In this document: positions 4,178-27,585 of the stretch, piece after piece
How the letters are laid out: every line of letters begins with the position of its first letter
Numbering within the stretch: the stretch's first letter is position 1
DNA from: a virus
Taxonomy: Duplodnaviria; Heunggongvirae; Uroviricota; Caudoviricetes
Length of the DNA stretch: 53,150 nt
Strand: one strand, 5' to 3'
Virus record (IMG/VR): IMGVR_UViG_2537562195_000010
Notes under the pieces: model-generated
Database searches by the model: none
What the model was told of the DNA's origin: nothing
What the model saw: the letters and a program-made list of their open reading frames with translations, nothing else
Program-made: the position numbers and the translations under genes

Positions 4178-4362
4178 TGCTGCCCTCCGAAAATGCCAAG
4201 TTCAAGAAGGGCAATTCTGGAGAGTATGGAATTATCATTGAGAAGATAAGGCTCATATTTTCTCATCCTGATGGCGTCCTCAGTAAACTCCCGGTTACTG
4301 AGCAGAATACCAATATTAAAACACCCTTCAGACGTATTAACGTTTGGTAGTGACGTTTCCAT
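4174..4362 (-). CDS. Small hypothetical protein
   Basis: 62 aa; ATG preceded by GAGGA at ~7 nt on the minus strand; coupled to the downstream small ORF. Confidence 0.35.
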   Translation of the reverse strand: METSLPNVNTSEGCFNIGILLSNREFTEDAIRMRKYEPYLLNDNSILSRIALLELGIFGGQQ

Positions 4363-4899
4363 TATCGCGTCCTCAACAATGAATTTTGTGATGTGGTGCC
4401 TGGTGCCTCCAGGTGACGTTAACCAGTTAACAATTAACGCCGGATTGTTAGTTGATGTCTGTTACGCCAGTAAAAGACCGCTTGTTTTAACTGTTCCGCG
4501 TGCGCTTAGCCGCATTCACCGCATCACAAAATACACTTTAAAAATGGCGGATATCCATTTCCGCCGAATCACCAGAAAAGTGATAACAGAGGTTGTTGTG
4601 GCGGTGTTGTCACTCAGGCGCATGGTCAACCTGACAACCCGGTACATTTTCTGGAGCAATGGAGGAAGCCCCAGCCATACTTACCGCCGCGCCATTTCGC
4701 GGATTGCCACAACCGGAAGCGCACGATCGAATTAAATTTAACGACAAGCCTTATATTCTCGCCGTGCGCTTTCGTGTTATGCCCTGACTTTTCAGGGATA
4801 TGTTCTTTCAGCAAACTGTCAGTGCCGGATTCTTATCCGTGTCCGGCGCACGACCACACGTGACAGCGTGTTGGTCTCCATCATTAACCCGGAACCTCT

Positions 4900-5165: not shown

Positions 5166-5579
5166 TTATGGCAATTTCTTCGGTAGCTCTTCAGAAAGCT
5201 GAGTTGTTTTAATTATGGTTTTTAAATAATCATCGCTTTCACATTTGAGTGATTCTATGGCAATCCAGATGCGGGCTTCGGTGCCTGCATTTGGTTCCAG
5301 TTGTTGTAGACGTTTTGCATCTTCCAGTAGTAAGGCGATAACGTGTTTCAGCTTCTCATCATTCGCTTGATTCTTATTTTCAGGCGAATGTTGTCCGCCG
5401 AATGGCCACTTTTCTTCGTACAGCCCGATAAAGGTTCGACGCACGTTACCGGATATATTATCGACGGTTTCTTTTTCTACGGTACTCAGGTCAAGAGTCG
5501 CCAGTTGAGAGCGAACTATATTCGCTGCCATTTCCTGGAATGGTACTGGTAAATCTTTAAATTCCATCGTCAACCTCAT
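5166..5579 (-). CDS. Hypothetical early-left protein (first gene downstream of the putative PL)
   Basis: 137 aa ORF on the repressor strand, ~320 nt downstream of the putative OL/PL; not Arg-rich, so not an obvious N-type antiterminator; no family recognised. Confidence 0.5.
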   Translation of the reverse strand: MRLTMEFKDLPVPFQEMAANIVRSQLATLDLSTVEKETVDNISGNVRRTFIGLYEEKWPFGGQHSPENKNQANDEKLKHVIALLLEDAKRLQQLEPNAGTEARIWIAIESLKCESDDYLKTIIKTTQLSEELPKKLP

Positions 5580-5913
5580 CAGTCAGTGTTTCTGGCTAAC
5601 CAGCGACGCGCGCCAGCTTCAGTTTTAAACGTTTTGCTTCTGGTATACGTCATCGCGGTAAACGTGCCGTCCAGGTTGGGGAATACTCCGCATACCAGAG
5701 ATTCGTTGTTGCCAAGATTGAGCGTATCCATGTTGACCTCATTTCCCCTTAACGCCGGGTCGCGGAACTAAAAACCTGCTGCGCTGTTATACAAAGTGTT
5801 CCCGCCGTCATGTTCATACGCCTCGGGCTGGCTACTTAACCCCTGACCACTGCCGGGTAACTCTAAGTATTGCCCTGCGTTCTGTGGGGCGGGGTGGGTT
5901 GGTATGAAATGAA

Positions 5914-5954
5914 GAATACCTGCGGGTATTCAAAAAGTAAATACCCACGGGTAA
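5914..5954. promoter_or_regulatory. Putative OL operator pair (two 16-bp palindromes AATACC-N4-GGTATT / AATACC-N4-GGTAAG)
   Basis: Seen directly: 5914-5929 'AATACCTGCGGGTATT' and 5939-5954 'AATACCCACGGGTAAG', just downstream of the repressor gene end, where a leftward promoter would sit. Confidence 0.45.
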
Positions 5955-5996
5955 GTTTTTTGGTGTATCTTGACTGGTGCTAGGTTGTTTGGTGGG

Positions 5997-6416
5997 CTAT
6001 GATGTGTTTCGTGCTTTCTTTTTGCTGATTTCTTCGTAGATCATATTGTAATATTGTTTTTTCTCTTCAAGAGTTTTTAATAAGTTATCCGCTTCGCTTT
6101 CTGGCAGTTCGTCCAAGAGATCTAAAAAAATACGTTGTCGTGGTGTTAGAACCCTTGTTTCATAATTGGAGGTTGTGTTCGTTGATGATGAAACGATACC
6201 ATCCATCCATCCCCGGGGTAACCCAAAGGATTCTTCGATAATCTCCACCATATCATCAGCGATCCGTTTTTTCCCTTTTTTCCCCTCTGGGTACAACATT
6301 CTTGATACATAAGAAGGCTCGCGGCCGATTTTTCTGGCCACGTTAACCGCTTTACCATCGCATTTCTCATCACGAATTTTGATGAGTTGCTGTCGTCTAA
6401 ATTCATATTTGTCCAT
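5997..6416 (-). CDS. Prophage repressor (CI-like HTH protein lacking an S24 peptidase domain)
   Basis: 139 aa; HTH-like segment 'VARKIGREPSYVSRML'; divergent from a Cro-like gene and flanked on both sides by related palindromic operators; no Ala-Gly/Ser-Lys autocleavage module recognisable. Confidence 0.7.
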   Translation of the reverse strand: MDKYEFRRQQLIKIRDEKCDGKAVNVARKIGREPSYVSRMLYPEGKKGKKRIADDMVEIIEESFGLPRGWMDGIVSSSTNTTSNYETRVLTPRQRIFLDLLDELPESEADNLLKTLEEKKQYYNMIYEEISKKKARNTS

Positions 6417-6434
6417 AGGTAAATAATAGAGGCG

Positions 6435-6491
6435 ATTACCGCAAGGTAAACAACCCAGGGGTATTGACTTTTGTTTACCTGTGGGTATTCT
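6435..6491. promoter_or_regulatory. Putative OR operators and PR promoter for the Cro-like gene
   Basis: Operator-like palindromes 6435-6450 'ATTACCGCAAGGTAAA' and 6475-6490 'TTTACCTGTGGGTATT' with the same half-site family as OL; -35 'TTGACT' at 6465-6470 overlapping the operators; Cro-like start at 6518. Confidence 0.45.
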
Positions 6492-6517
6492 TTTGTTGTG
6501 TTTACTAAGGAGTAGTT

Positions 6518-6799
6518 ATGGAAGAATTAAGAATATTTCTCAATTCTCTTTCGTCAGATGAACAGCGTATGTTTGCATGTGAGTGTGGTACTAGCATCGG
6601 TTATCTAAGAAAAGCATTGAGTAAAGGTCAAGTGTTAGGGGCATCGTTATGTGTCCTTATTGAGCGAGCCAGTAATGGTGAAGTTACACGTCAGCAACTA
6701 CGGCCTTTTGATTGGATGAACATTTGGCCCGAGCTGGAAGATACCCAAACGTTAACACAACCACTTTCCTGGAGCTTGATTCATGAAAATCAAGCATGA
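6518..6799 (+). CDS. Cro-like transcriptional regulator (YdaS-family HTH)
   Basis: 93 aa; '...GTSIGYLRKALSKG...LCVLIERASNGEVTRQQLRPFDW' matches the YdaS/Cro-like pattern (C..IERAT.G.V....LRPD.W); divergent from the repressor. Confidence 0.7.
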   Translation: MEELRIFLNSLSSDEQRMFACECGTSIGYLRKALSKGQVLGASLCVLIERASNGEVTRQQLRPFDWMNIWPELEDTQTLTQPLSWSLIHENQA

Positions 6800-7220
6800 A
6801 CACATCCGCATGGCAATGAATGCGTGGCTGCTTTATCCGAAGGTAGGGCGCAAAAAAATCGCTGATGATATAGCGACAGCATATTTTGAGCTTGAAATGA
6901 CTTATCCACCAATGCATGACACCTCTACGACAGAGGGTATTGGATTGAACATACAAAATATTTTTCGCTGGCTTGAAAAGGATACGCCTGATGCTGTTGA
7001 AAAAATTCAGGCACTAATTCCGGCTATCCTGACTGTTCTTCCGCGTGAACTGCGTTATCACCTCAGTATTTTTGACACTGTTGAGCGCCGTGCATTACTG
7101 GCGGCGCAGGAAGCGTTGAGCACGGCAATTGATGCACATGATGATGCAGTCCAGGCCGTTTACCGGAAAGCGTATTTCAGCGACAGCGGGTCATCCGGCG
7201 AGTCTGTTGTGGTGCATTGA
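6783..7220 (+). CDS. YdaT-like protein (possible CII-type regulator analogue)
   Basis: 145 aa ORF directly after the YdaS-like gene, the racR-ydaS-ydaT arrangement of Rac-type immunity regions; assignment by synteny and general resemblance only. Confidence 0.5.
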   Translation: MKIKHEHIRMAMNAWLLYPKVGRKKIADDIATAYFELEMTYPPMHDTSTTEGIGLNIQNIFRWLEKDTPDAVEKIQALIPAILTVLPRELRYHLSIFDTVERRALLAAQEALSTAIDAHDDAVQAVYRKAYFSDSGSSGESVVVH

Positions 7221-12117: not shown

Positions 12118-12417
12118 TTATAAGAAATCGGTTTCATAACTTTGTCCGCCATGATAAATACCTGCGATAAAGACTTTATTGCCATCAACGGCAAAAGCAA
12201 TAATCGTTCTGTGGCGGAAGTGAGTTACCCGCATTCCCTGTCGAATATCATCGCGTTTATTGCCCCGATGCGGGAATGTGGAAAACCCATCAAGATAATC
12301 AAGAAGTGCATTGGCATAATTGTCAGCAATGACGCTCCCTGCTTTCTCCGTTATATATCTGTGCAGGTTGATTATCTGCTGTTCGGCCTCAGGAGTAATG
12401 ATGACTTCATATGTCAT
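12118..12417 (-). CDS. ParE/RelE-superfamily toxin (type II TA toxin)
   Basis: 99 aa from 'MTYEVIITPEAEQQI...'; size, sequence character and position directly after a ParD-like gene fit ParE-family toxins. Confidence 0.7.
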   Translation of the reverse strand: MTYEVIITPEAEQQIINLHRYITEKAGSVIADNYANALLDYLDGFSTFPHRGNKRDDIRQGMRVTHFRHRTIIAFAVDGNKVFIAGIYHGGQSYETDFL

Positions 12418-12422
12418 GCAGA

Positions 12423-12680
12423 TTACTTCCCGGCTCGAATCGCGGCGCGAACCTGTGCAATGGAGCGTCCGTTGTTTGGGTTTTCGCGGATAGAATCGAG
12501 AGATGGGGCGGCTGAATGCGTTAACCACGCTTCGATTGCTTTATCGCGCTCATTCAGTGCGCGAAGCCCTTCACGAATGACCTCACTTTCTGAAGCATAG
12601 GCACCGGAAGCCACACGGGCGCGCACCATGTCAGCCATCTCGTTAGTTAATGTAACGCTGAATTGTTGGGTTGTACGCAT
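12423..12680 (-). CDS. ParD-like RHH antitoxin
   Basis: 85 aa from 'MRTTQQFSVTLTNEMADMVRARVASGAYASESEVIREGLRAL'; ribbon-helix-helix antitoxin pattern; 5-nt gap to the toxin gene. Confidence 0.7.
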   Translation of the reverse strand: MRTTQQFSVTLTNEMADMVRARVASGAYASESEVIREGLRALNERDKAIEAWLTHSAAPSLDSIRENPNNGRSIAQVRAAIRAGK

Positions 12681-12761
12681 GGTAAACCTCACGGAGTAGG
12701 ATAGAACACTATTCGATGATAGCACGCTTCCTGTTGACGACAACAGAAATCAGAGACAATA

Positions 12762-13094
12762 TTGCCGCACGCCAGCCTGAACAACTGGCACCTGCTGCGC
12801 CAGCAGAGACAACCGATGGCGCACGATACCAAATTACACAATTCGGATAACTCCGCCGCCCCTGCCAGCAGGCACGGGCGGCGTTCTCATGCATTCAAAT
12901 CTGACTGGTTCCAGCATGACCCATGCACTGAAGAACAGGCCGAATGGCTGATCCAGTGCTACCGCAGACGTGGTTACGAGTTTCAGAAAGATCTCAGCTT
13001 CGATCGTCGTCACTGGATAATCTCCGTCAGGCTCCCTTATTCCGAACGCCCACCGCGTCCGTCCCGCACATTCCAGCAGCGCATCTGGAGGTAA
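12762..13094 (+). CDS. Hypothetical protein (weak call)
   Basis: 110 aa ORF between the TA pair and the DUF968 gene; start codon uncertain (TTG at 12762 or ATG at 12816). Confidence 0.3.
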   Translation: MPHASLNNWHLLRQQRQPMAHDTKLHNSDNSAAPASRHGRRSHAFKSDWFQHDPCTEEQAEWLIQCYRRRGYEFQKDLSFDRRHWIISVRLPYSERPPRPSRTFQQRIWR

Positions 13095-16667: not shown

Positions 16668-17726
16668 ATGTTTAATACTGTAAAAATATCCAGTTGTGAG
16701 TTAATCAACGCCGACTGCCTGGAATTTATCCGGTCGTTACCCGAAAATTCTGTTGACCTGATAGTCACGGACCCGCCGTACTTTAAAGTGAAGCCTGAGG
16801 GCTGGGATAACCAGTGGACGGGTGATGAGGATTACCTGAAATGGCTGGACCAGTGTCTGGCGCAGTTCTGGCGGGTGCTGAAACCTGCCGGAAGTCTTTA
16901 CCTGTTCCGTGGCCATCGCCTGGCGTCTGACATTGAAATCATGATGCGTGAACGCTTCAGTGTGCTGAACCATATTATCTGGGCGAAGCCGTCCGGACGC
17001 TGGAACGGGTGCAACAAGGAAAGCCTGAGGGCGTATTTCCCCGCCACAGAGCGCATTCTGTTCGCGGAACACTATCAGGGGCCGTATCGCCCGAAAGATG
17101 ATGGCTATGAGGCGAAGGGCAGGGCACTGAAACAGCATGTGATGGCTCCGCTGATTGCTTACTTTCGTGATGCGCGTGCTGCCCTGGGGATAACGGCAAA
17201 ACAGATAGTGGATGCCACAGGAAAGAAAAACATGGTGTCGCACTGGTTCAGTGCCAGTCAGTGGCAGCTACCGAACGAAAGCGATTATCTGAAATTACAG
17301 GCGCTGTTTGCCCGGGTGGCAGAAGAGAAGCATCAGCGGGGTGAACTGGAAAAGCCCCACCACCAGCTGCTGGAGACGTATACTTCACTGAACCGGCAGT
17401 ATGCGGAACTGCAGAGTGAATATAAGCATCTGCGGCGGTATTTTGGCGTGACGGCGCAGGTGCCGTACACGGATGTGTGGACGCATAAACCGGTGCAGTA
17501 CTATCCCGGGAAACATCCGTGCGAAAAACCGGCAGAAATGCTGCAGCAGATAATCAGTGCGAGCAGTCGTCCGGGTGACCTGGTTGCAGATTTCTTCATG
17601 GGGTCGGGTTCGACAGTCAAAGCCGCGATGGCGCTGGGGCGTCGTGCAACTGGCGTTGAGCTGGAGACTGAACGTTTTGAGCAGACGGTCAGGGAAGTAC
17701 AGGATTTAGTCAGTCAGAATGGATGA
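16668..17726 (+). CDS. DNA methyltransferase (beta-class N6-adenine/N4-cytosine, DPPY motif)
   Basis: 352 aa; motif IV 'DLIVTDPPY' near the N-terminus and motif I 'DFFMGSGST' near the C-terminus (beta-class order); no adjacent restriction endonuclease, so likely an orphan phage methylase. Confidence 0.85.
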   Translation: MFNTVKISSCELINADCLEFIRSLPENSVDLIVTDPPYFKVKPEGWDNQWTGDEDYLKWLDQCLAQFWRVLKPAGSLYLFRGHRLASDIEIMMRERFSVLNHIIWAKPSGRWNGCNKESLRAYFPATERILFAEHYQGPYRPKDDGYEAKGRALKQHVMAPLIAYFRDARAALGITAKQIVDATGKKNMVSHWFSASQWQLPNESDYLKLQALFARVAEEKHQRGELEKPHHQLLETYTSLNRQYAELQSEYKHLRRYFGVTAQVPYTDVWTHKPVQYYPGKHPCEKPAEMLQQIISASSRPGDLVADFFMGSGSTVKAAMALGRRATGVELETERFEQTVREVQDLVSQNG

Positions 17727-17766
17727 TATTGCAGGATTAGTTACGTACCGTTATTATCATGCGCCC

Positions 17767-17842
17767 GGCCCTTTAGCTCAGTGGTGAGAGCGAGCGACTC
17801 ATAATCGCCAGGTCGCTGGTTCAAATCCAGCAAGGGCCACCA
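17767..17842 (+). tRNA. tRNA with CAU anticodon (Met or lysidine-modified Ile2)
   Basis: Hand-folded cloverleaf: acceptor GGCCCTT/AAGGGCC, D-arm GCTC...GAGC, anticodon loop CTCATAA, T-arm GCTGG-TTCAAAT-CCAGC, encoded CCA. Confidence 0.85.
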
Positions 17843-17850
17843 TATCCATA

Positions 17851-17927
17851 CCGCCATTAGCTCATCGGGATAGAGCGCCAGCCTTCGAAGCTGGCTGCGC
17901 GGGGTTCGAGTCCTCGATGGCGGTCCA
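17851..17927 (+). tRNA. tRNA-Arg (anticodon UCG)
   Basis: Hand-folded cloverleaf: acceptor CCGCCAT/ATGGCGG, anticodon stem CCAGC/GCTGG with loop CTTCGAA, T-loop TTCGAGT, encoded CCA. Confidence 0.85.
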
Positions 17928-18205
17928 TTATCAGCATTATGCGTTGTTGGTTCTGATGAGTGAATCATTGTCTTTTGAGCAACAGGCTATCATATAAGAT
18001 AGCCTCAGACTTCCTTGTTTATTCTCGCCGGATGCTTCGTAGATATTTGCAGGCATCTGTATGCAGGGGTATTATTGCGGCATATATCATCCGGAAAAAT
18101 AAAAACTACATGCTGATCCGGAGATGATAGTTACAAGTCCTCCCGGATCCCGCATATTTACTATATTTTATAGATAATTGTTCTTGTTAATATGGAGATG
18201 GATAA

Positions 18206-18634
18206 ATGTATTGCCGTGCTGTACCGGTTCTTGTTTTGATATTAGCCAGTCTGACAACTGGCTGCACAAAAGATGTATCGACAAATAATTATGATGCTTC
18301 TCTGTATCACTCAGATAAATTAATAAAGTCACAAAATTTGAGCTCATCGGAACGTAGCCCTGATGCCAGTGAAGAAATCCGGCAGTATGCCATTCAGGTC
18401 AGGAAAGCCATAGAAGAACAGTTAAAGGATGCGAGTAAGTATTCAGGAAAAGAGTGTTCACTGAGAATGTATATGGCCCCGAATGGTCTTCTGCTACAGG
18501 TTAAAAGAGAAAGCGGTGATCCCGATTTATGTCGTGAAGCGATGAATGCAGTAAAGAATGCTGATATACCATCACCACCGTCTTCAGGAGTATATAAAGC
18601 ATTTAGAAATGGCGTGCTGGATTTTAAACTCTGA
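18206..18634 (+). CDS. Lipoprotein with TolA C-terminal (domain III)-like domain
   Basis: 142 aa; signal peptide with lipobox-like 'LTTGC'; C-terminal 'YAIQVRKAIEEQLKDASKYSGKECSLRMYMAPNGLLLQVKRESGDPDLCREAMNAVKNADIPSPPSSGVYKAFRNGVLDFKL' closely parallels the E. coli TolA C-terminus as I recall it (...GDPALC...KIPKPPSQAVYEVFKNAPLDFKP); AT-rich moron. Confidence 0.7.
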   Translation: MYCRAVPVLVLILASLTTGCTKDVSTNNYDASLYHSDKLIKSQNLSSSERSPDASEEIRQYAIQVRKAIEEQLKDASKYSGKECSLRMYMAPNGLLLQVKRESGDPDLCREAMNAVKNADIPSPPSSGVYKAFRNGVLDFKL

Positions 18635-18700
18635 CAGGGGGGAGAAGATTTTCTCCTGTCCTGATGATTTTGGGGCGCTGGAAAGATATTGTGCTGTGAA

Positions 18701-18950
18701 GTGTTAAATCCCTCACAATTCAGTAAGTTGACAGTTGCCTGTCAGACTGAGCATTTGTTAAAAAAATTTCGCATGGTGAATCCCCCTGTGCGGAGGGGCG
18801 ACTGGTGAACGGTATGATCTCTTTGATGATCGTAAGCGAGAATACGCGGGTTTGGTGTCACCGGGCTGAACTCACCGGGAGGCACCCGGCACCATGCTCA
18901 TGGTGATACAGAAATGCGGCTTCAGCCCCTCTCCGGAGGGGCTTTCTTAT
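18701..18950 (+). repeat. Structured repeat unit A (family of five; possible sRNA gene or promoter-terminator cassette)
   Basis: Contains the conserved blocks 'GTTAAATCCCTCACA', 'TTGTTAAAAAAA', hairpin 'GGTGAATCCCCCTGTGCGGAGGGGC', hairpin 'CACCGGGAGGCACCCGGCACC' and terminator 'GCCCCTC-TCCG-GAGGGGC-TTTCTT' (18925-18948). Confidence 0.7.
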
Positions 18951-19110
18951 GGACAAAAAAAGCCCGCGCTGGGAGACGCGGGCGGCAAGGAATAAACAAT
19001 AAAACGTGAAGTAATACTTCAACTGGCGAATAATACCCGACAGTAATCACTCTGCGCAATAGCGTGGCCTTTTTCGAATTGCGGGCTGTAGTCTCCCTTC
19101 TGCTGGGTGT

Positions 19111-19266
19111 CCTGGTTGCAGATTTCTTCATGGGGTAGGGTTCGGCAGTTAAAGCAGCGATGGCGCTGGGGCGTCGTGCAACTGGCGTTGAGCTGGATAC
19201 CGGGCGTTTTGAACAGACTGCGCAGGAAATCAGGGATGTATTTAGCGGGAGCGGTTTGCAGAAGTA
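19111..19266 (+). pseudogene. Remnant of a DNA methyltransferase 3' end (duplicate of the C-terminus of the 16668..17726 gene)
   Basis: Near-identical to 17578-17726 ('CCTGGTTGCAGATTTCTTCATGGGG...GGCGTCGTGCAACTGGCGTTGAGCTGGA...') but with an in-frame TAG ('FFMG*') and no upstream gene body. Confidence 0.6.
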
Positions 19267-19330
19267 ATCTCCCAAAATGCCATTTTTGGAATATACTGGT
19301 ATTAAGTCTTTTTGCTAAGGTTAATTCAAA

Positions 19331-20056
19331 ATGGATGTTGCCTGCTCTGTGGTCCTGATTCGCTATCCGATAGATATTTTTCTTGAAAAAGAAAAAGTTT
19401 CACTCGATGCCGGAAGTGTTATGCTTGTTGCCAGAAATATAAGAGGGCTTTTCTGTGCTTATGCCGACAGAGTGAAAATGGCAGATATAAGTAACAGCGT
19501 CGTCAATCAGTATCTGGAAAGGGAGTGTGAACTGACGGAGTATACACCGACAAAAATTCCTCTTTATTTGATGTCTGATATTTACAATACGGAACTGGCG
19601 GAGGCTTTAATAACCCAGCATAGTGAATCCAGTGATACTTTGAAGGATTTCTCTGTTATAACCGCATTTTCATGTATCTCCTTATTTGCAACAGACAGAC
19701 GTCTGCCATTATTTTTGTCCGGTGCTGTAAATAATATCAGCTGTAAAGTAAGGGCTATAATTCAGACCGACATATCGGCAGGCTGGATGCTTGGTGTGAT
19801 TGCATTACAATTGCATATGAGCGAAAGCTTGTTGAAGCGAAAACTTAAGGATGAAGGTTATAGCTTTAGTCGGTTGTTGCTGGAGGAGCGAATGCGTGTT
19901 GCTGTTAATCTTGTATGTTTCCAGCGAGAGTGTGGACAAGCGATAGCGGAAAAATGTGGTTACTCAAGTAAGTCCTACTTCATTTCTGTATTTCACCAGT
20001 ATTATGGTGCACCACCTGAGAGCTATGCATATTTGCAGAAAGCAGACGTTATCTGA
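19331..20056 (+). CDS. AraC/XylS-family transcriptional regulator (prophage-encoded)
   Basis: 241 aa; C-terminal double-HTH region '...LHMSESLLKRKLKDEGYSFSRLLLEERMRVAVNLV...IAEKCGYSSKSYFISVFHQYYGAPP' typical of AraC-type regulators; AT-rich island. Confidence 0.75.
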   Translation: MDVACSVVLIRYPIDIFLEKEKVSLDAGSVMLVARNIRGLFCAYADRVKMADISNSVVNQYLERECELTEYTPTKIPLYLMSDIYNTELAEALITQHSESSDTLKDFSVITAFSCISLFATDRRLPLFLSGAVNNISCKVRAIIQTDISAGWMLGVIALQLHMSESLLKRKLKDEGYSFSRLLLEERMRVAVNLVCFQRECGQAIAEKCGYSSKSYFISVFHQYYGAPPESYAYLQKADVI

Positions 20057-26616: not shown

Positions 26617-26889
26617 GCAGAATATTTTGCTGAAAAATGATGTTGGCCAACGCGGGCGGATAACACGAAATCCTGCGAACTGGCAAAACCTAAGTGAATA
26701 AAGTCAGGAACATTGTTTCACGCAGAGGCACCGTAATGGTGCCTTTGTCATTTCTGCGCTTCGCACAAGCGTAAATAAACCAAAGAACCTTTCAGGATGA
26801 GCCCTGGTGGATAACCGGCAGTGGTCTGGTTAACCCTCTTTGGGCTGGTTATTCCTGTGCGCAGGGTTCATTACTAAAAGGAATCAACC

Positions 26890-27585
26890 ATGAAAGAGAT
26901 GATTTCTGTCGATCATGAAATATCCATGAGTAGTCTGGATTTTCTGAATAACATTATTAATCCAGCCCGGGCAGAAGCCGGAGAAGTCCCTCATGAACCG
27001 CGTAAGTTTCTTGCAAAAATTGAGGATGAACTTGAGCTTGATGGAACCGGAAAAAAATTCCGGTTAAACAATAACCAGACAAGAACGGCATACTATGATC
27101 TGGATTTTGACCAGATGATGCTCGTTGGCATGAGGGAGTCAAAGGCCGTTCGTCGTTCTGTGCTGGCAAGACTCAAAGCGATGCATGGTATTCAGATCCC
27201 CCGGACTTTACCTGAGGCGTTGCGATTTGCGGCAAAACTGGCAGAACAGAAAGCAGTGCTGGAAAATCAACTGGCAATAGCAGCGCCGAAGGCTGAATTT
27301 GTTGATAACTATGTTGAAGCATCTGGTCTGATGGGATTCCGGGAAGTTGCTAAGTTACTCGGTATCAAAGAAACCGATTTCCGGCTGTTTTTGTTGGAGA
27401 ACGGAATAATGTATCGCCTCGCTGGAAAAATGACGCCTTACTCGCATCACCTGGATGCGGGGCGGTTTAGCGTGAAAACGGGCGAGGCGGGCAATGGTCA
27501 TGCTTTTACGCAGGTTAAATTCACCCCAAAAGGTGTTCAGTGGATTGCTGGTCTGCTTGCTGCATGGAGAGCTACCGCAGCATGA
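26890..27585 (+). CDS. Antirepressor (KilA-C domain protein)
   Basis: 231 aa; C-terminal region '...FVDNYVEASGLMGFREVAKLLGIKETDFRLFLLENGIMYR...' is the KilA-C/Ant pattern; located in the lysis cassette as in Shiga-toxin phages. Confidence 0.7.
   Translation: MKEMISVDHEISMSSLDFLNNIINPARAEAGEVPHEPRKFLAKIEDELELDGTGKKFRLNNNQTRTAYYDLDFDQMMLVGMRESKAVRRSVLARLKAMHGIQIPRTLPEALRFAAKLAEQKAVLENQLAIAAPKAEFVDNYVEASGLMGFREVAKLLGIKETDFRLFLLENGIMYRLAGKMTPYSHHLDAGRFSVKTGEAGNGHAFTQVKFTPKGVQWIAGLLAAWRATAA

What the first reader, a model, noticed from the sequence alone, without database searches (positions are those of the whole stretch)
5900..6520. Immunity region with a peptidase-less repressor, AATACC-N4-GGTATT operators on both sides, and a distal antirepressor
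The repressor (139 aa) has no recognisable LexA-type autocleavage domain. Related 16-bp palindromes occur twice downstream of the repressor gene (putative OL) and twice in the divergent intergenic region overlapping a TTGACT -35 element (putative OR/PR). A KilA-C antirepressor gene is encoded ~20 kb away in the lysis cassette. This suggests induction through antirepressor rather than RecA-mediated cleavage, with a YdaS/YdaT-type Cro/CII analogue pair.
Basis: partly seen in the sequence, partly recalled or inferred. Interest (0 to 1): 0.5.

Follow-up and report, generated by a model that had tools for sequence, protein, structure and literature searches.

The report
Prophage immunity switch, non-cleavable repressor
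This is the lysis/lysogeny switch of an E. coli lambda-like prophage whose repressor has swapped the usual self-cleaving domain for a short DicA/Gifsy-type tail, a known kind of switch, and the distant antirepressor gene is probably not its trigger.

Summary
The 139-aa repressor (5997-6416, minus strand) has no S24 peptidase domain. TACC-N4-GGTA palindromes occur only around its gene: two downstream (OL) and three, not two, in the divergent region (OR). A KilA-C Ant gene lies between the lysozyme and Rz genes.

The repressor is a chimera. Residues 1-72 are 76% identical to the DNA-binding domain of phage mEp043 cI, and most relatives of this domain carry an S24 peptidase. Residues 89-136 are the short helical tail of DicA (Qin) and GtgR (Gifsy-2), two repressors known to be inactivated by small antirepressors rather than by cleavage. 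The three-site OR layout is conserved in six loci from five genera. YdaT is genuine, and its published operator sits at the ydaS/ydaT junction.

The weak step is Ant. It has no LexA box or promoter-like site upstream and sits among late lysis genes. It is missing from three of four prophages that carry this repressor. A near-identical copy (99.5% over residues 1-219) sits in a phage with a cleavable cI. No Rem, GftA or DinI homologue is present. Non-cleavable repression is well supported, but the inducer is unidentified.

Verdict: an ordinary, new member of a known kind.

The parts
5997..6416 (-). Repressor gene (cI analogue), 139 aa. DNA-binding domain is aa 1-72 (nt 6201-6416), the disordered linker about aa 76-87, and the DicA/GtgR-type helical C-terminal module aa 89-139 (nt 6000-6152).
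   Evidence: No Pfam hit; PHROG 5736 'transcriptional regulator', E 2.7e-68. Residues 1-72 are 76% identical to mEp043 cI. Residues 89-136 are 33% identical to the DicA C-terminus, E 3e-8, and align to GtgR at 27%, E 0.002. AF2 model pLDDT 85.
5915..5930 (.). OL1: perfect palindrome AATACCTGCGGGTATT. It covers the spacer and -10 of the inferred PL.
   Evidence: Paralogous to the OR1/PR arrangement (sequence).
5940..5955 (.). OL2: AATACCCACGGGTAAG, centred 25 bp from OL1.
   Evidence: The same 25-26 bp site pairs occur downstream of cI in mEp043 and in Serratia, Salmonella and Pantoea loci.
5913..5941 (-). Inferred PL: -35 TTTACT (5941-5936), 17-nt spacer, -10 TATTCT (5918-5913). It would drive the DUF1391 gene (5579-5731) and the leftward operon.
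   Evidence: Read from the sequence. It matches only 8 of 12 consensus positions, so the scan did not list it. It aligns with PR almost base for base. Inference.
6435..6450 (.). OR3: ATTACCGCAAGGTAAA. It overlaps the -35 and spacer of PRM.
   Evidence: Conserved position in six loci.
6450..6465 (.). OR2: ACAACCCAGGGGTATT, with one strong and one weak half-site. It overlaps the PR -35 and is centred about -41.5 relative to the PRM start.
   Evidence: The same strong-half/weak-half pattern is seen in all homologous loci.
6474..6489 (.). OR1: TTTACCTGTGGGTATT. It lies between the PR -35 and -10 and overlaps the -10.
6423..6450 (-). PRM-like promoter: TTTACC (6450-6445), 16 nt, TATTAT (6428-6423). 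The -10 ends 7 nt before the ATG and there is no Shine-Dalgarno sequence, so the repressor mRNA would be leaderless.
   Evidence: and the sequence. Leaderless mRNA is an inference.
6464..6491 (+). PR-like promoter: TTGACT, 16 nt, TATTCT.
6518..6799 (+). YdaS-like Cro analogue, 93 aa, preceded by AAGGAG.
   Evidence: PF15943 at 25.9 bits, below the cutoff of 30. phrog_35 'transcriptional repressor', E 8e-22. Weak similarity to K-12 YdaS.
6783..7220 (+). YdaT, the CII analogue, 145 aa.
   Evidence: PF06254 at 42 bits, above the cutoff of 21. 57% identical to K-12 YdaT. phrog_163 'CII-like activator'.
6776..6793 (.). YdaT operator: TTGATTCATGAAAATCAA, a perfect TTGATT-N6-AATCAA at the ydaS/ydaT junction.
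   Evidence: The only perfect match in the window. Same motif and same position as the footprinted OM site of CP-933P YdaT (PMC9986795).
26890..27585 (+). KilA-C Ant gene between R and Rz. It is listed because the finding names it; the evidence does not tie it to this repressor.
   Evidence: PF03374. No promoter or LexA box upstream. Absent from 3 of 4 prophages with this repressor. Identical or 99.5% identical over aa 1-219 in other phages, including one with an S24 cI.

Best explanation
This is the immunity (lysis/lysogeny) switch of a complete-looking Rac/Qin/Stx-phage-like lambdoid prophage integrated next to ompW.

The 139-aa repressor probably binds as a dimer to WWTACC-N4-GGTAWW operators. 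OR1 and OR2 occlude PR. OR2, centred near -42 of PRM, is placed to activate repressor synthesis, and OR3 is placed to shut it off. OL1 and OL2 occlude PL. Rightward, PR expresses a YdaS-type Cro analogue and YdaT, the CII analogue, which has its own operator at the ydaS/ydaT junction.

The repressor cannot autocleave. Its DNA-binding domain comes from a family that normally carries an S24 peptidase. Here that peptidase is replaced by the roughly 50-aa helical C-terminal module found in DicA and Gifsy GtgR.

Derepression is therefore most likely non-covalent, through a protein antagonist as for DicA/Rem and GtgR/GftA, or through spontaneous switching. The cognate antagonist is not recognisable in this window. 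The KilA-C Ant in the lysis cassette is a freely assorting late-region gene. At most it reinforces commitment or acts on other prophages after the switch has already flipped.

Shown here: the anatomy, the domain composition, operator enrichment and conservation, and the lack of a Gifsy-type LexA/antirepressor module. Inferred: DNA binding, dimerisation, PRM activation, leaderless mRNA, and the mode of inactivation.
For: - No S24 domain. Most relatives of the DNA-binding domain are 221-242 aa with PF00717.
- The C-terminal module is homologous to DicA (E 3e-8), Tritos CI (68% identity) and GtgR (E 0.002).
- The module alone finds 41 representative proteins, nearly all 125-185 aa with the module at the C-terminus. 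Of 33 scanned, 26 have HTH_3 and none has S24.
- DicA is derepressed by Rem, and GtgR is released from DNA by GftA without cleavage.
- All four TACC-N4-GGTA sites in the window flank the gene. The same three-site OR, with spacings of about 25 and 15 bp, and paired OL sites occur in mEp043, Yersinia, Serratia, Salmonella and Pantoea loci, with short or long repressors.
- Promoter-like PR and PRM hexamers overlap the sites.
- The AF2 model shows a helical HTH domain, a disordered linker and a helical hairpin. The best PDB match is the antirepressor-controlled Rep of phage SPC32H.
- The YdaT operator matches published footprinting.
- Ant is unlinked to this repressor and has no LexA box or promoter upstream.
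Against: - No binding, dimerisation or induction data exist for this protein.
- No antirepressor of the Rem/GftA family, no DinI and no LexA box next to a small ORF was found in the window. The antagonist part therefore rests on analogy only.
- Similarity to the GtgR C-terminus is weak (27%, pairwise E 0.002).
- It is not known which domain of DicA or GtgR the antirepressors contact, so sharing the C-terminal module does not prove shared regulation.
- P22-type Ant proteins have broad specificity, so Ant could still bind this repressor.
- The PL assignment is below the scan threshold.
Confidence: 0.6

Rival explanations
1. The KilA-C Ant in the lysis cassette is the cognate inducer: DNA damage leads to Ant synthesis, Ant binds the repressor, and the prophage is induced.
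For: Ant carries a bona fide PF03374 domain and matches the PHROG 'anti-repressor Ant' family. P22 Ant inactivates several heterologous repressors (Lemire et al. discussion). The repressor's DNA-binding domain most resembles SPC32H Rep, which is controlled by an antirepressor. The window carries both genes, as does EH53.
Against: The 273 bp upstream of ant contain no LexA box; the best window site is at 16676 and nothing lies near ant. No sigma-70-like promoter is found there. The gene lies between R and Rz among the late lysis genes, so on the lambdoid model it would be transcribed only after derepression. Three of four prophages with this repressor lack it. Copies identical or 99.5% identical over aa 1-219 occur in Stx1a phages and in PhiR5_1, whose cI has an S24 domain. 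Ant occurs in 126 of 279 Stx phages of mixed repressor type (PMC8136144). Ant shows no sequence match to the Ant chain of 5D50.
Confidence: 0.12
2. No dedicated antagonist exists. The prophage has no SOS input in cis and switches only stochastically or under other stresses, through YdaS/Cro takeover, dilution or host proteolysis of the repressor. Spontaneous derepression of this kind was reported for DicA-controlled dicBp.
For: No Rem, GftA or DinI homologue and no LexA-box/small-ORF module is present here. None is seen in the sampled stretches of five other prophages with this repressor or this C-terminal module, although the same matrix recovers the Gifsy-2 dinI box at 24.4 bits. Neighbouring genes differ between loci that carry an identical repressor. 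Spontaneous, antirepressor-independent derepression of dicBp is documented.
Against: Small antirepressors diverge fast and are easily missed. They can be supplied in trans by co-resident prophages. The conserved C-terminal module with an invariant LP..E motif suggests a protein-protein interface beyond simple dimerisation.
Confidence: 0.22
3. The two palindromes downstream of the repressor gene are only its transcription terminator, not a left operator.
For: The scan lists two terminator-like hairpins on the minus strand at 5948-5922 and 5931-5914.
Against: They have the same half-sites as the OR sites. They lie 25 bp apart, like OR1 and OR2. They overlap a PR-like -35/-10 arrangement, and equivalent pairs occur up to 1.4 kb from cI in other loci. 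The T-tracts are poor. A dual role is possible.
Confidence: 0.04
4. The short repressor is a decayed, truncated remnant of an S24 repressor in a defective prophage.
For: Most relatives of the DNA-binding domain are long S24 forms. Frameshifted variants of this gene exist in databases.
Against: The C-terminal 50 residues form a distinct, conserved module shared with DicA, GtgR, the CI annotated in the Tritos phage genome and 41 representative clusters. It is not out-of-frame S24 sequence. It is modelled as confident helices. The cluster holding the 96%-identical protein has 543 members.
Confidence: 0.02

Closest known systems
DicA (Qin prophage, E. coli K-12) with its antirepressor Rem
   Same: About 135-139 aa. 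N-terminal HTH, linker, and a homologous C-terminal helical module with an L-(S/T)-P...LPESE motif (33% identity over 48 aa). Divergent cro-like gene. DUF1391 is the first leftward gene and dicB lies further left. No cleavage motif.
   Different: The DNA-binding domain is unrelated at sequence level: DicA is HTH_3, while this one has no Pfam hit. Qin uses DicC, not YdaS/YdaT. No Rem (PF27490/phrog_340) homologue is present in the window.
Gifsy-1/-2/-3 repressors (GfoR, GtgR/GftR, GfhR) with LexA-controlled antirepressors GfoA/GftA/GfhA (Lemire et al. 2011)
   Same: A short, non-cleaved repressor with the same type of C-terminal module (GtgR). The antirepressor concept lies outside the immunity region.
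   Different: Gifsy phages have a terminator, LexA box, dinI and antirepressor module about 1.3 kb past the replication genes. The LexA matrix recovers it in Gifsy-2 at 24.4 bits. The window has no such module and no GftA or DinI homologue.
Phage mEp043 cI and the related 'LexA family' prophage repressors
   Same: The DNA-binding domain is 76% identical with an identical recognition-helix stretch, EPSYVSRMLYPEGK. The operator half-site (WWTACC), three-site OR layout and likely leaderless PRM are the same.
   Different: mEp043 cI is 228 aa with Peptidase_S24 and Ala-Gly dipeptides. It is paired with conventional Cro and CII.
RacR-YdaS-YdaT of Rac and the CP-933P immunity region
   Same: YdaT is 57% identical to K-12 YdaT. 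The TTGATT-N6-AATCAA operator is at the ydaS/ydaT junction. DUF1376 replication gene and a ParE-family toxin-antitoxin pair lie nearby.
   Different: The repressor shows no detectable similarity to RacR.
P22 immI Ant, and SPC32H Rep/Ant
   Same: A KilA-C Ant domain protein is present. The repressor's DNA-binding domain model superposes on SPC32H Rep (72 columns, 1.3 A, 26% identity).
   Different: No Mnt/Arc-type regulators or Pant-like promoter lie next to ant. The window Ant has no sequence match to any PDB chain, including the Ant of 5D50. The fold match is modest (E about 1e-3) for a very common HTH fold.

Membership tests
LexA/lambda-CI-type autocleavable repressor | C-terminal Peptidase_S24 domain with a Ser/Lys dyad | tested here: not met
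   No Pfam hit at E<=1. Only about 50 structured residues follow the linker, modelled as two helices. Positive controls mEp043 cI and PhiR5_1 cI score 64-67 bits for PF00717.
LexA/lambda-CI-type autocleavable repressor | Ala-Gly (or Cys-Gly) cleavage site in the linker | tested here: not met
   No AG or CG dipeptide anywhere in the 139 aa (sequence).
DicA/GtgR-type short non-cleavable prophage repressor | About 130-150 aa, with an N-terminal HTH DNA-binding domain | tested here: met
   139 aa. The AF2 model has helices at 3-18, 23-30, 34-40 and 54-63, and its top fold matches are HTH repressors.
DicA/GtgR-type short non-cleavable prophage repressor | Homologous C-terminal helical module (LP-E-E motif) | tested here: met
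   DicA E 3e-8, GtgR E 0.002, Tritos CI 68% identity. Family alignment.
DicA/GtgR-type short non-cleavable prophage repressor | Inactivated by binding of a small antirepressor (Rem/GfoA/GftA family) | not testable with these tools
   Needs a protein interaction or reporter assay. No family member is encoded in the window.
Gifsy-type SOS module | LexA box upstream of a dinI-antirepressor operon in the nin region | tested here: not met
   The LexA matrix finds one strong site only, at 16676 inside a methylase gene. The CTGT-N8-ACAG at 12731-12746 belongs to the ParDE promoter region and is not conserved in Tritos or 2013C-3033.
RacR family | Sequence homology to RacR | tested here: not met
   BLASTP gives no meaningful alignment, E 5.3.
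YdaT (CII analogue) family | PF06254 above the gathering score | tested here: met
   42 bits against a cutoff of 21. 57% identity to K-12 YdaT.
YdaT (CII analogue) family | TTGATT-N6-AATCAA operator at the end of ydaS | tested here: met
   Perfect site at 6776-6793, matching the CP-933P footprint.
YdaS (Cro analogue) family | PF15943 above the gathering score | tested here: inconclusive
   25.9 bits against a cutoff of 30. Position and phrog_35 support a Cro-like role.
P22-type Ant/immI system | Ant with a KilA-C domain | tested here: met
   PF03374 at 98.9 bits.
P22-type Ant/immI system | Dedicated promoter with Mnt/Arc-type control, or LexA control, of ant | tested here: not met
   No promoter-like site, no LexA box, and no adjacent small regulator ORF of 60 aa or more.
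Cognate repressor-antirepressor pair (this repressor plus this Ant) | Co-inheritance of the two genes | tested here: not met
   Ant is present in the window and EH53, and absent in EH41, 2013C-3033 and STEC299. The same Ant accompanies an S24 cI in PhiR5_1.

The most novel reading that the evidence does not exclude
One DNA-binding domain and operator set (WWTACC-N4-GGTAWW) circulates with at least three alternative C-terminal tails: an S24 peptidase, the DicA/GtgR module, and a third short tail.

If the short form is homoimmune with mEp043-type phages, this prophage would confer SOS-proof immunity. It could even hold a co-resident homoimmune, SOS-inducible phage repressed after DNA damage. Its own induction would then depend entirely on antagonists supplied in trans by other prophages, including late-expressed Ant proteins, which would make a hierarchical induction network in polylysogenic STEC.
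Probability: 0.15. Interest if true: 0.55.

Novelty: new member of a known kind. Interest (0 to 1): 0.3.

Why it matters
Short non-cleavable repressors are very common in E. coli and Salmonella prophages, including relatives of Stx phages. For most of them the inducing signal is unknown.

This case gives a clean operator prediction supported by comparison across genera. It also shows that the cleavable and non-cleavable induction modes are exchanged as C-terminal cassettes on one DNA-binding specificity.

It further shows that an annotated 'antirepressor' elsewhere in a prophage should not be assumed to be the cognate inducer. None of this overturns current understanding.

Tried and rejected
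1. RacR homology for the repressor: none found.
2. A Rem/GftA/DinI-type antirepressor module in the window. tblastn, a PHROG scan of nine nin-region, PL-operon and other small ORFs, and a local Rem HMM against all six-frame ORFs all found nothing.
3. The CTGT-N8-ACAG palindrome at 12731-12746 as an SOS box for the 92-aa ORF upstream of DUF968. It is rejected because the box is absent upstream of the same ORF in Tritos, 2013C-3033 and K-12 Qin, it scores below 7 bits, outside the top 12 sites of the LexA matrix, and it overlaps the ParDE promoter.
4. The 92-aa ORF (phrog_1212) as a Rem equivalent: no similarity. It accompanies DUF968 next to at least three different repressors: DicA in Qin, Tritos CI and this one.
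5. A sequence link between the window Ant and the SPC32H Ant, or any solved structure: none. The repressor profile finds no PDB relative by sequence.
6. The hairpin upstream of ant (26722-26748, -23.5 kcal/mol, z -3.1). It is stable but not a canonical terminator, and the scan did not list it.
7. A conserved cis-linked Ant or Bro-N gene near short-form repressors in other genera. One Yersinia locus has a weak Bro-N protein in the PL operon, but a second locus with the identical repressor does not.
8. Literature on mEp043 operators: none found in the held library.
Full report
WHERE THE WINDOW COMES FROM. The 1.8 kb around the finding is 99.9% identical to a prophage in E. coli strains EH41 and EH53. 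In EH41 the element lies next to ompW and starts with integrase, excisionase, a RecE-like exonuclease and dicB. The rest of the window carries replication genes, a ParD/ParE pair, DUF968, RusA and Q. It continues with a DNA methylase, tRNAs, a lysis cassette, and head and tail genes. It therefore looks like a complete lambdoid prophage of the Rac/Qin/Stx-phage type. RefSeq calls the repressor a 'hypothetical protein'.

CHECK OF THE OBSERVATION. ORF 5997-6416 (minus strand) encodes 139 aa with no Pfam match at all at E<=1. It has no Ala-Gly or Cys-Gly dipeptide. It belongs to PHROG 5736, 'transcriptional regulator'.
- The pattern AATACC-N4-GGTATT with up to 3 mismatches gives 30 hits in the window against 16.5 +/- 3.8 expected.
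- Five of these cluster at 5915, 5940, 6435, 6450 and 6474.
- The strict core TACC-N4-GGTA occurs four times in 53 kb, all four at these places.
- Five ACC-N4-GGT sites within 575 bp was never reached in 300 Markov simulations.

The divergent region therefore holds three sites, not two. Promoter-like hexamers fit the sites. PR is TTGACT (6464-6469), 16 nt, TATTCT. OR2 overlaps its -35 and OR1 overlaps its -10. PRM, on the other strand, is TTTACC (6450-6445), 16 nt, TATTAT (6428-6423), and OR3 lies over its -35.

The PRM -10 ends 7 nt before the ATG and there is no ribosome-binding site. The repressor mRNA would therefore be leaderless, as for lambda cI; this is an inference. OR2 is centred about 41.5 bp upstream of that start, the position from which lambda repressor activates PRM (established knowledge, inferred here).

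Downstream of the gene, the sequence around OL2 and OL1 aligns almost base for base with the OR2 / -35 / OR1 / -10 arrangement of PR. This gives a PL of TTTACT, 17 nt, TATTCT on the minus strand. That promoter is below the scan's threshold, so it is an inference.

THE REPRESSOR IS A CHIMERA. tblastn against phage genomes splits the protein in two.
- Residues 1-72 are 76% identical to cI of phage mEp043.
- Residues 90-139 are 68% identical to the 139-aa CI of phage Tritos.

mEp043 cI is 228 aa with a Peptidase_S24 domain and several Ala-Gly dipeptides. In the large protein database, most relatives of the DNA-binding domain are 221-242 aa S24 proteins from Salmonella, Edwardsiella, Yersinia, Pantoea and Klebsiella. 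The short form is a minority, found in E. coli, Salmonella, Serratia and Yersinia. A third kind of short tail is also found on the same domain, in P0117 and P0096.

The C-terminal 50 residues align with the C-terminus of DicA (33% over 48 aa, E 3e-8). They align more weakly with that of Gifsy-2 GtgR (27% over 51 aa, E 0.002). Searched alone against 1.84 billion representatives, this module finds 41 proteins, nearly all 125-185 aa with the module at the very C-terminus. Of 33 scanned, 26 carry HTH_3 and none carries S24. There is no similarity to RacR.

The AlphaFold model (pLDDT 85) shows a four-helix HTH domain (helices 3-18, 23-30, 34-40, 54-63). It is followed by a disordered linker (76-87) and a helical hairpin (92-103, 106-137). 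The best PDB match by fold is Rep of Salmonella phage SPC32H from the Rep-Ant complex 5D50 (72 columns, 1.3 A, 26% identity). The E-values are only about 1e-3, and many generic HTH proteins follow in the list. Sequence searches of the PDB find nothing.

THE OPERATORS ARE CONSERVED WITH THE DNA-BINDING DOMAIN. The mEp043 cro-cI region has the same layout. TTTACCTGTAGGTAAA lies next to cro. AATACCCATAGGTTAT lies 25 bp away, and TTTACCGGCAGGTAAT a further 15 bp away, sharing one base with the middle site. The half-sites are conserved while the central four bases vary.

The same three sites, at the same positions relative to the repressor start codon, occur in loci from Yersinia and Serratia (short repressors). 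They also occur in loci from Salmonella and Pantoea (S24 repressors). Pairs of sites 25-26 bp apart occur downstream at OL-like positions in mEp043 and in the Serratia, Salmonella and Pantoea loci. In all of them the middle site has one strong and one weak half, as here. This footprint across genera is the strongest evidence that the palindromes are the operators of this domain family, whichever C-terminal tail is attached.

YdaS AND YdaT. YdaT passes the Pfam threshold and is 57% identical to K-12 YdaT. The window contains one perfect TTGATT-N6-AATCAA, at 6776-6793 across the end of ydaS and the start of ydaT. This is the motif and the position footprinted for YdaT of CP-933P, where YdaT activates a PRE-like promoter (PMC9986795). 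The YdaS-like protein is below the Pfam threshold but sits in the Cro position behind a good ribosome-binding site.

HOW IS THE REPRESSOR INACTIVATED? The precedents for this C-terminal module are clear.
- Gifsy repressors are not cleaved. They are removed from DNA by small antirepressors expressed from a LexA-controlled dinI operon (PMC3121763).
- DicA is derepressed by Rem (PMC10448788).

I looked for the equivalent in the window. A LexA matrix built from 20 E. coli LexA-box sequences written from memory, not checked against a database, recovers the Gifsy-2 dinI box at 24.4 bits. In the window it gives one strong site only, TACTGTAAAAATATCCAGTT at 16676-16695, inside the first codons of a DNA methylase gene. 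Nothing lies near ant or the immunity region. Rem, GftA and DinI have no homologue by tblastn, PHROG scan or a local profile against all six-frame ORFs. A CTGT-N8-ACAG palindrome at 12731-12746 belongs to the ParDE promoter region and is not conserved upstream of the neighbouring ORF in related phages.

THE ANT GENE. ORF 26890-27585 has a KilA-C domain and lies between the lysozyme and Rz genes. Five points argue against it being the trigger.
- Its 273-bp upstream region has no promoter-like or terminator-like site and no LexA box. It contains only a stable hairpin.
- Its position among the late lysis genes implies, on the lambdoid model, transcription only after the repressor has already been lost.
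- It is not co-inherited with the repressor. EH53 has it. EH41 (99.9% identical immunity region), 2013C-3033 (99.2%) and STEC299 (95%, different head genes) have small unrelated ORFs at that place instead.
- Copies identical over residues 1-219 are found in Stx1a phages and Lys8385Vzw, and a 99.5%-identical copy in PhiR5_1. PhiR5_1 cI is HTH_3 + Peptidase_S24.
- A published survey found Ant in 126 of 279 Stx phages with mixed repressor types (PMC8136144).

Neighbourhoods of short-form repressors in Yersinia and Salmonella show no conserved Ant-like gene either. The phage genome Tritos, whose annotated CI has the same C-terminal module, has no Ant at all. Ant is therefore best read as a freely assorting late-region gene. 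It may act in trans on other prophages or reinforce commitment, as discussed for P22 Ant and Fels-1 FsoA. It is not shown to be the inducer of this prophage.

VERDICT. The anatomy is confirmed and refined, and non-cleavable repression is well supported. The inducing factor is unidentified. It could be an unrecognised gene, an antagonist from another prophage, or there may be no dedicated antagonist at all; spontaneous derepression is documented for dicBp. This is a new member of a known kind of switch. The domain swap on a conserved operator specificity is the most interesting detail, and it suggests testable cross-immunity with mEp043-type phages.

Noticed in passing
window 16676-16695: The only strong LexA-box-like site in the window, TACTGTAAAAATATCCAGTT (24.5 bits; training-site median 21). 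It lies inside codons 3-9 of the DNA methylase gene (16668-17726), about 150 bp after a terminator-like hairpin. The 281-bp stretch is 100% identical in at least ten Stx2-converting phages, where the methylase sits upstream of stx2. The box is also present in the 2013C-3033 prophage. This suggests possible SOS control of the methylase or of downstream genes.
   Followed up: partly
window 12118-12680 and 12731-12746: A ParE/RelE toxin and ParD antitoxin pair on the minus strand. A perfect CTGT-N8-ACAG palindrome (CTGTTGACGACAACAG) overlaps its likely -35. It resembles a LexA box in outline but scores poorly, and it is probably the antitoxin operator.
   Followed up: partly
window 12816-13094; L006 about 4340-4585 (K-12 Qin, minus strand): A 92-aa ORF (phrog_1212, no Pfam hit) always lies directly upstream of the DUF968 (YdfU) gene in this window, Tritos, EH41, 2013C-3033 and STEC299. 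An unannotated homologue lies between rem and ydfU in K-12 Qin.
   Followed up: partly
proteins P0117 and P0096: The same DNA-binding domain is also fused to a third, unrelated short C-terminal tail (EW.KIVWLWEHAD...). The domain therefore circulates with at least three alternative C-terminal cassettes.
   Followed up: no
window 6146-6406 (-) and proteins P0011, P0014, P0016, P0018, P0021, P0006: Several database entries of this repressor begin in an alternative reading frame (MNLDD.NSSKFVM...) and rejoin the normal frame. This indicates frameshifted alleles or mis-called starts in some genomes.
   Followed up: no
window 17766-20056: After the methylase and the tRNA genes (Ile and Arg, annotated in the near-identical EH41 stretch), at the place where Stx phages carry stx, the window has a lipoprotein-like ORF annotated 'TolA' (18206-18634). 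It also has an AraC-family regulator (19331-20056, HTH_18/HTH_AraC).
   Followed up: no
window 27547-27585 (end of ant): The Ant protein is 100% identical to that of Stx1a phages over residues 1-219 only. The last 12 residues do not align, which suggests a recombination junction or frameshift at the 3' end next to Rz.
   Followed up: no
L008 36945-38090 (phage Tritos): Tritos, whose annotated CI shares the C-terminal module, carries an ImmA/IrrE-type metallopeptidase gene with an HTH domain just upstream of the orf92-DUF968-Q block. This could be a different, proteolytic way of removing a short repressor. The RefSeq annotation of the near-identical EH41 prophage lists no such gene; the window itself was not scanned for it.
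   Followed up: no
window 43854-45017: A 387-aa ORF lies within the tail gene region. In the corresponding EH41 stretch it is annotated as porin OmpC, a cargo gene inside the tail operon.
   Followed up: no
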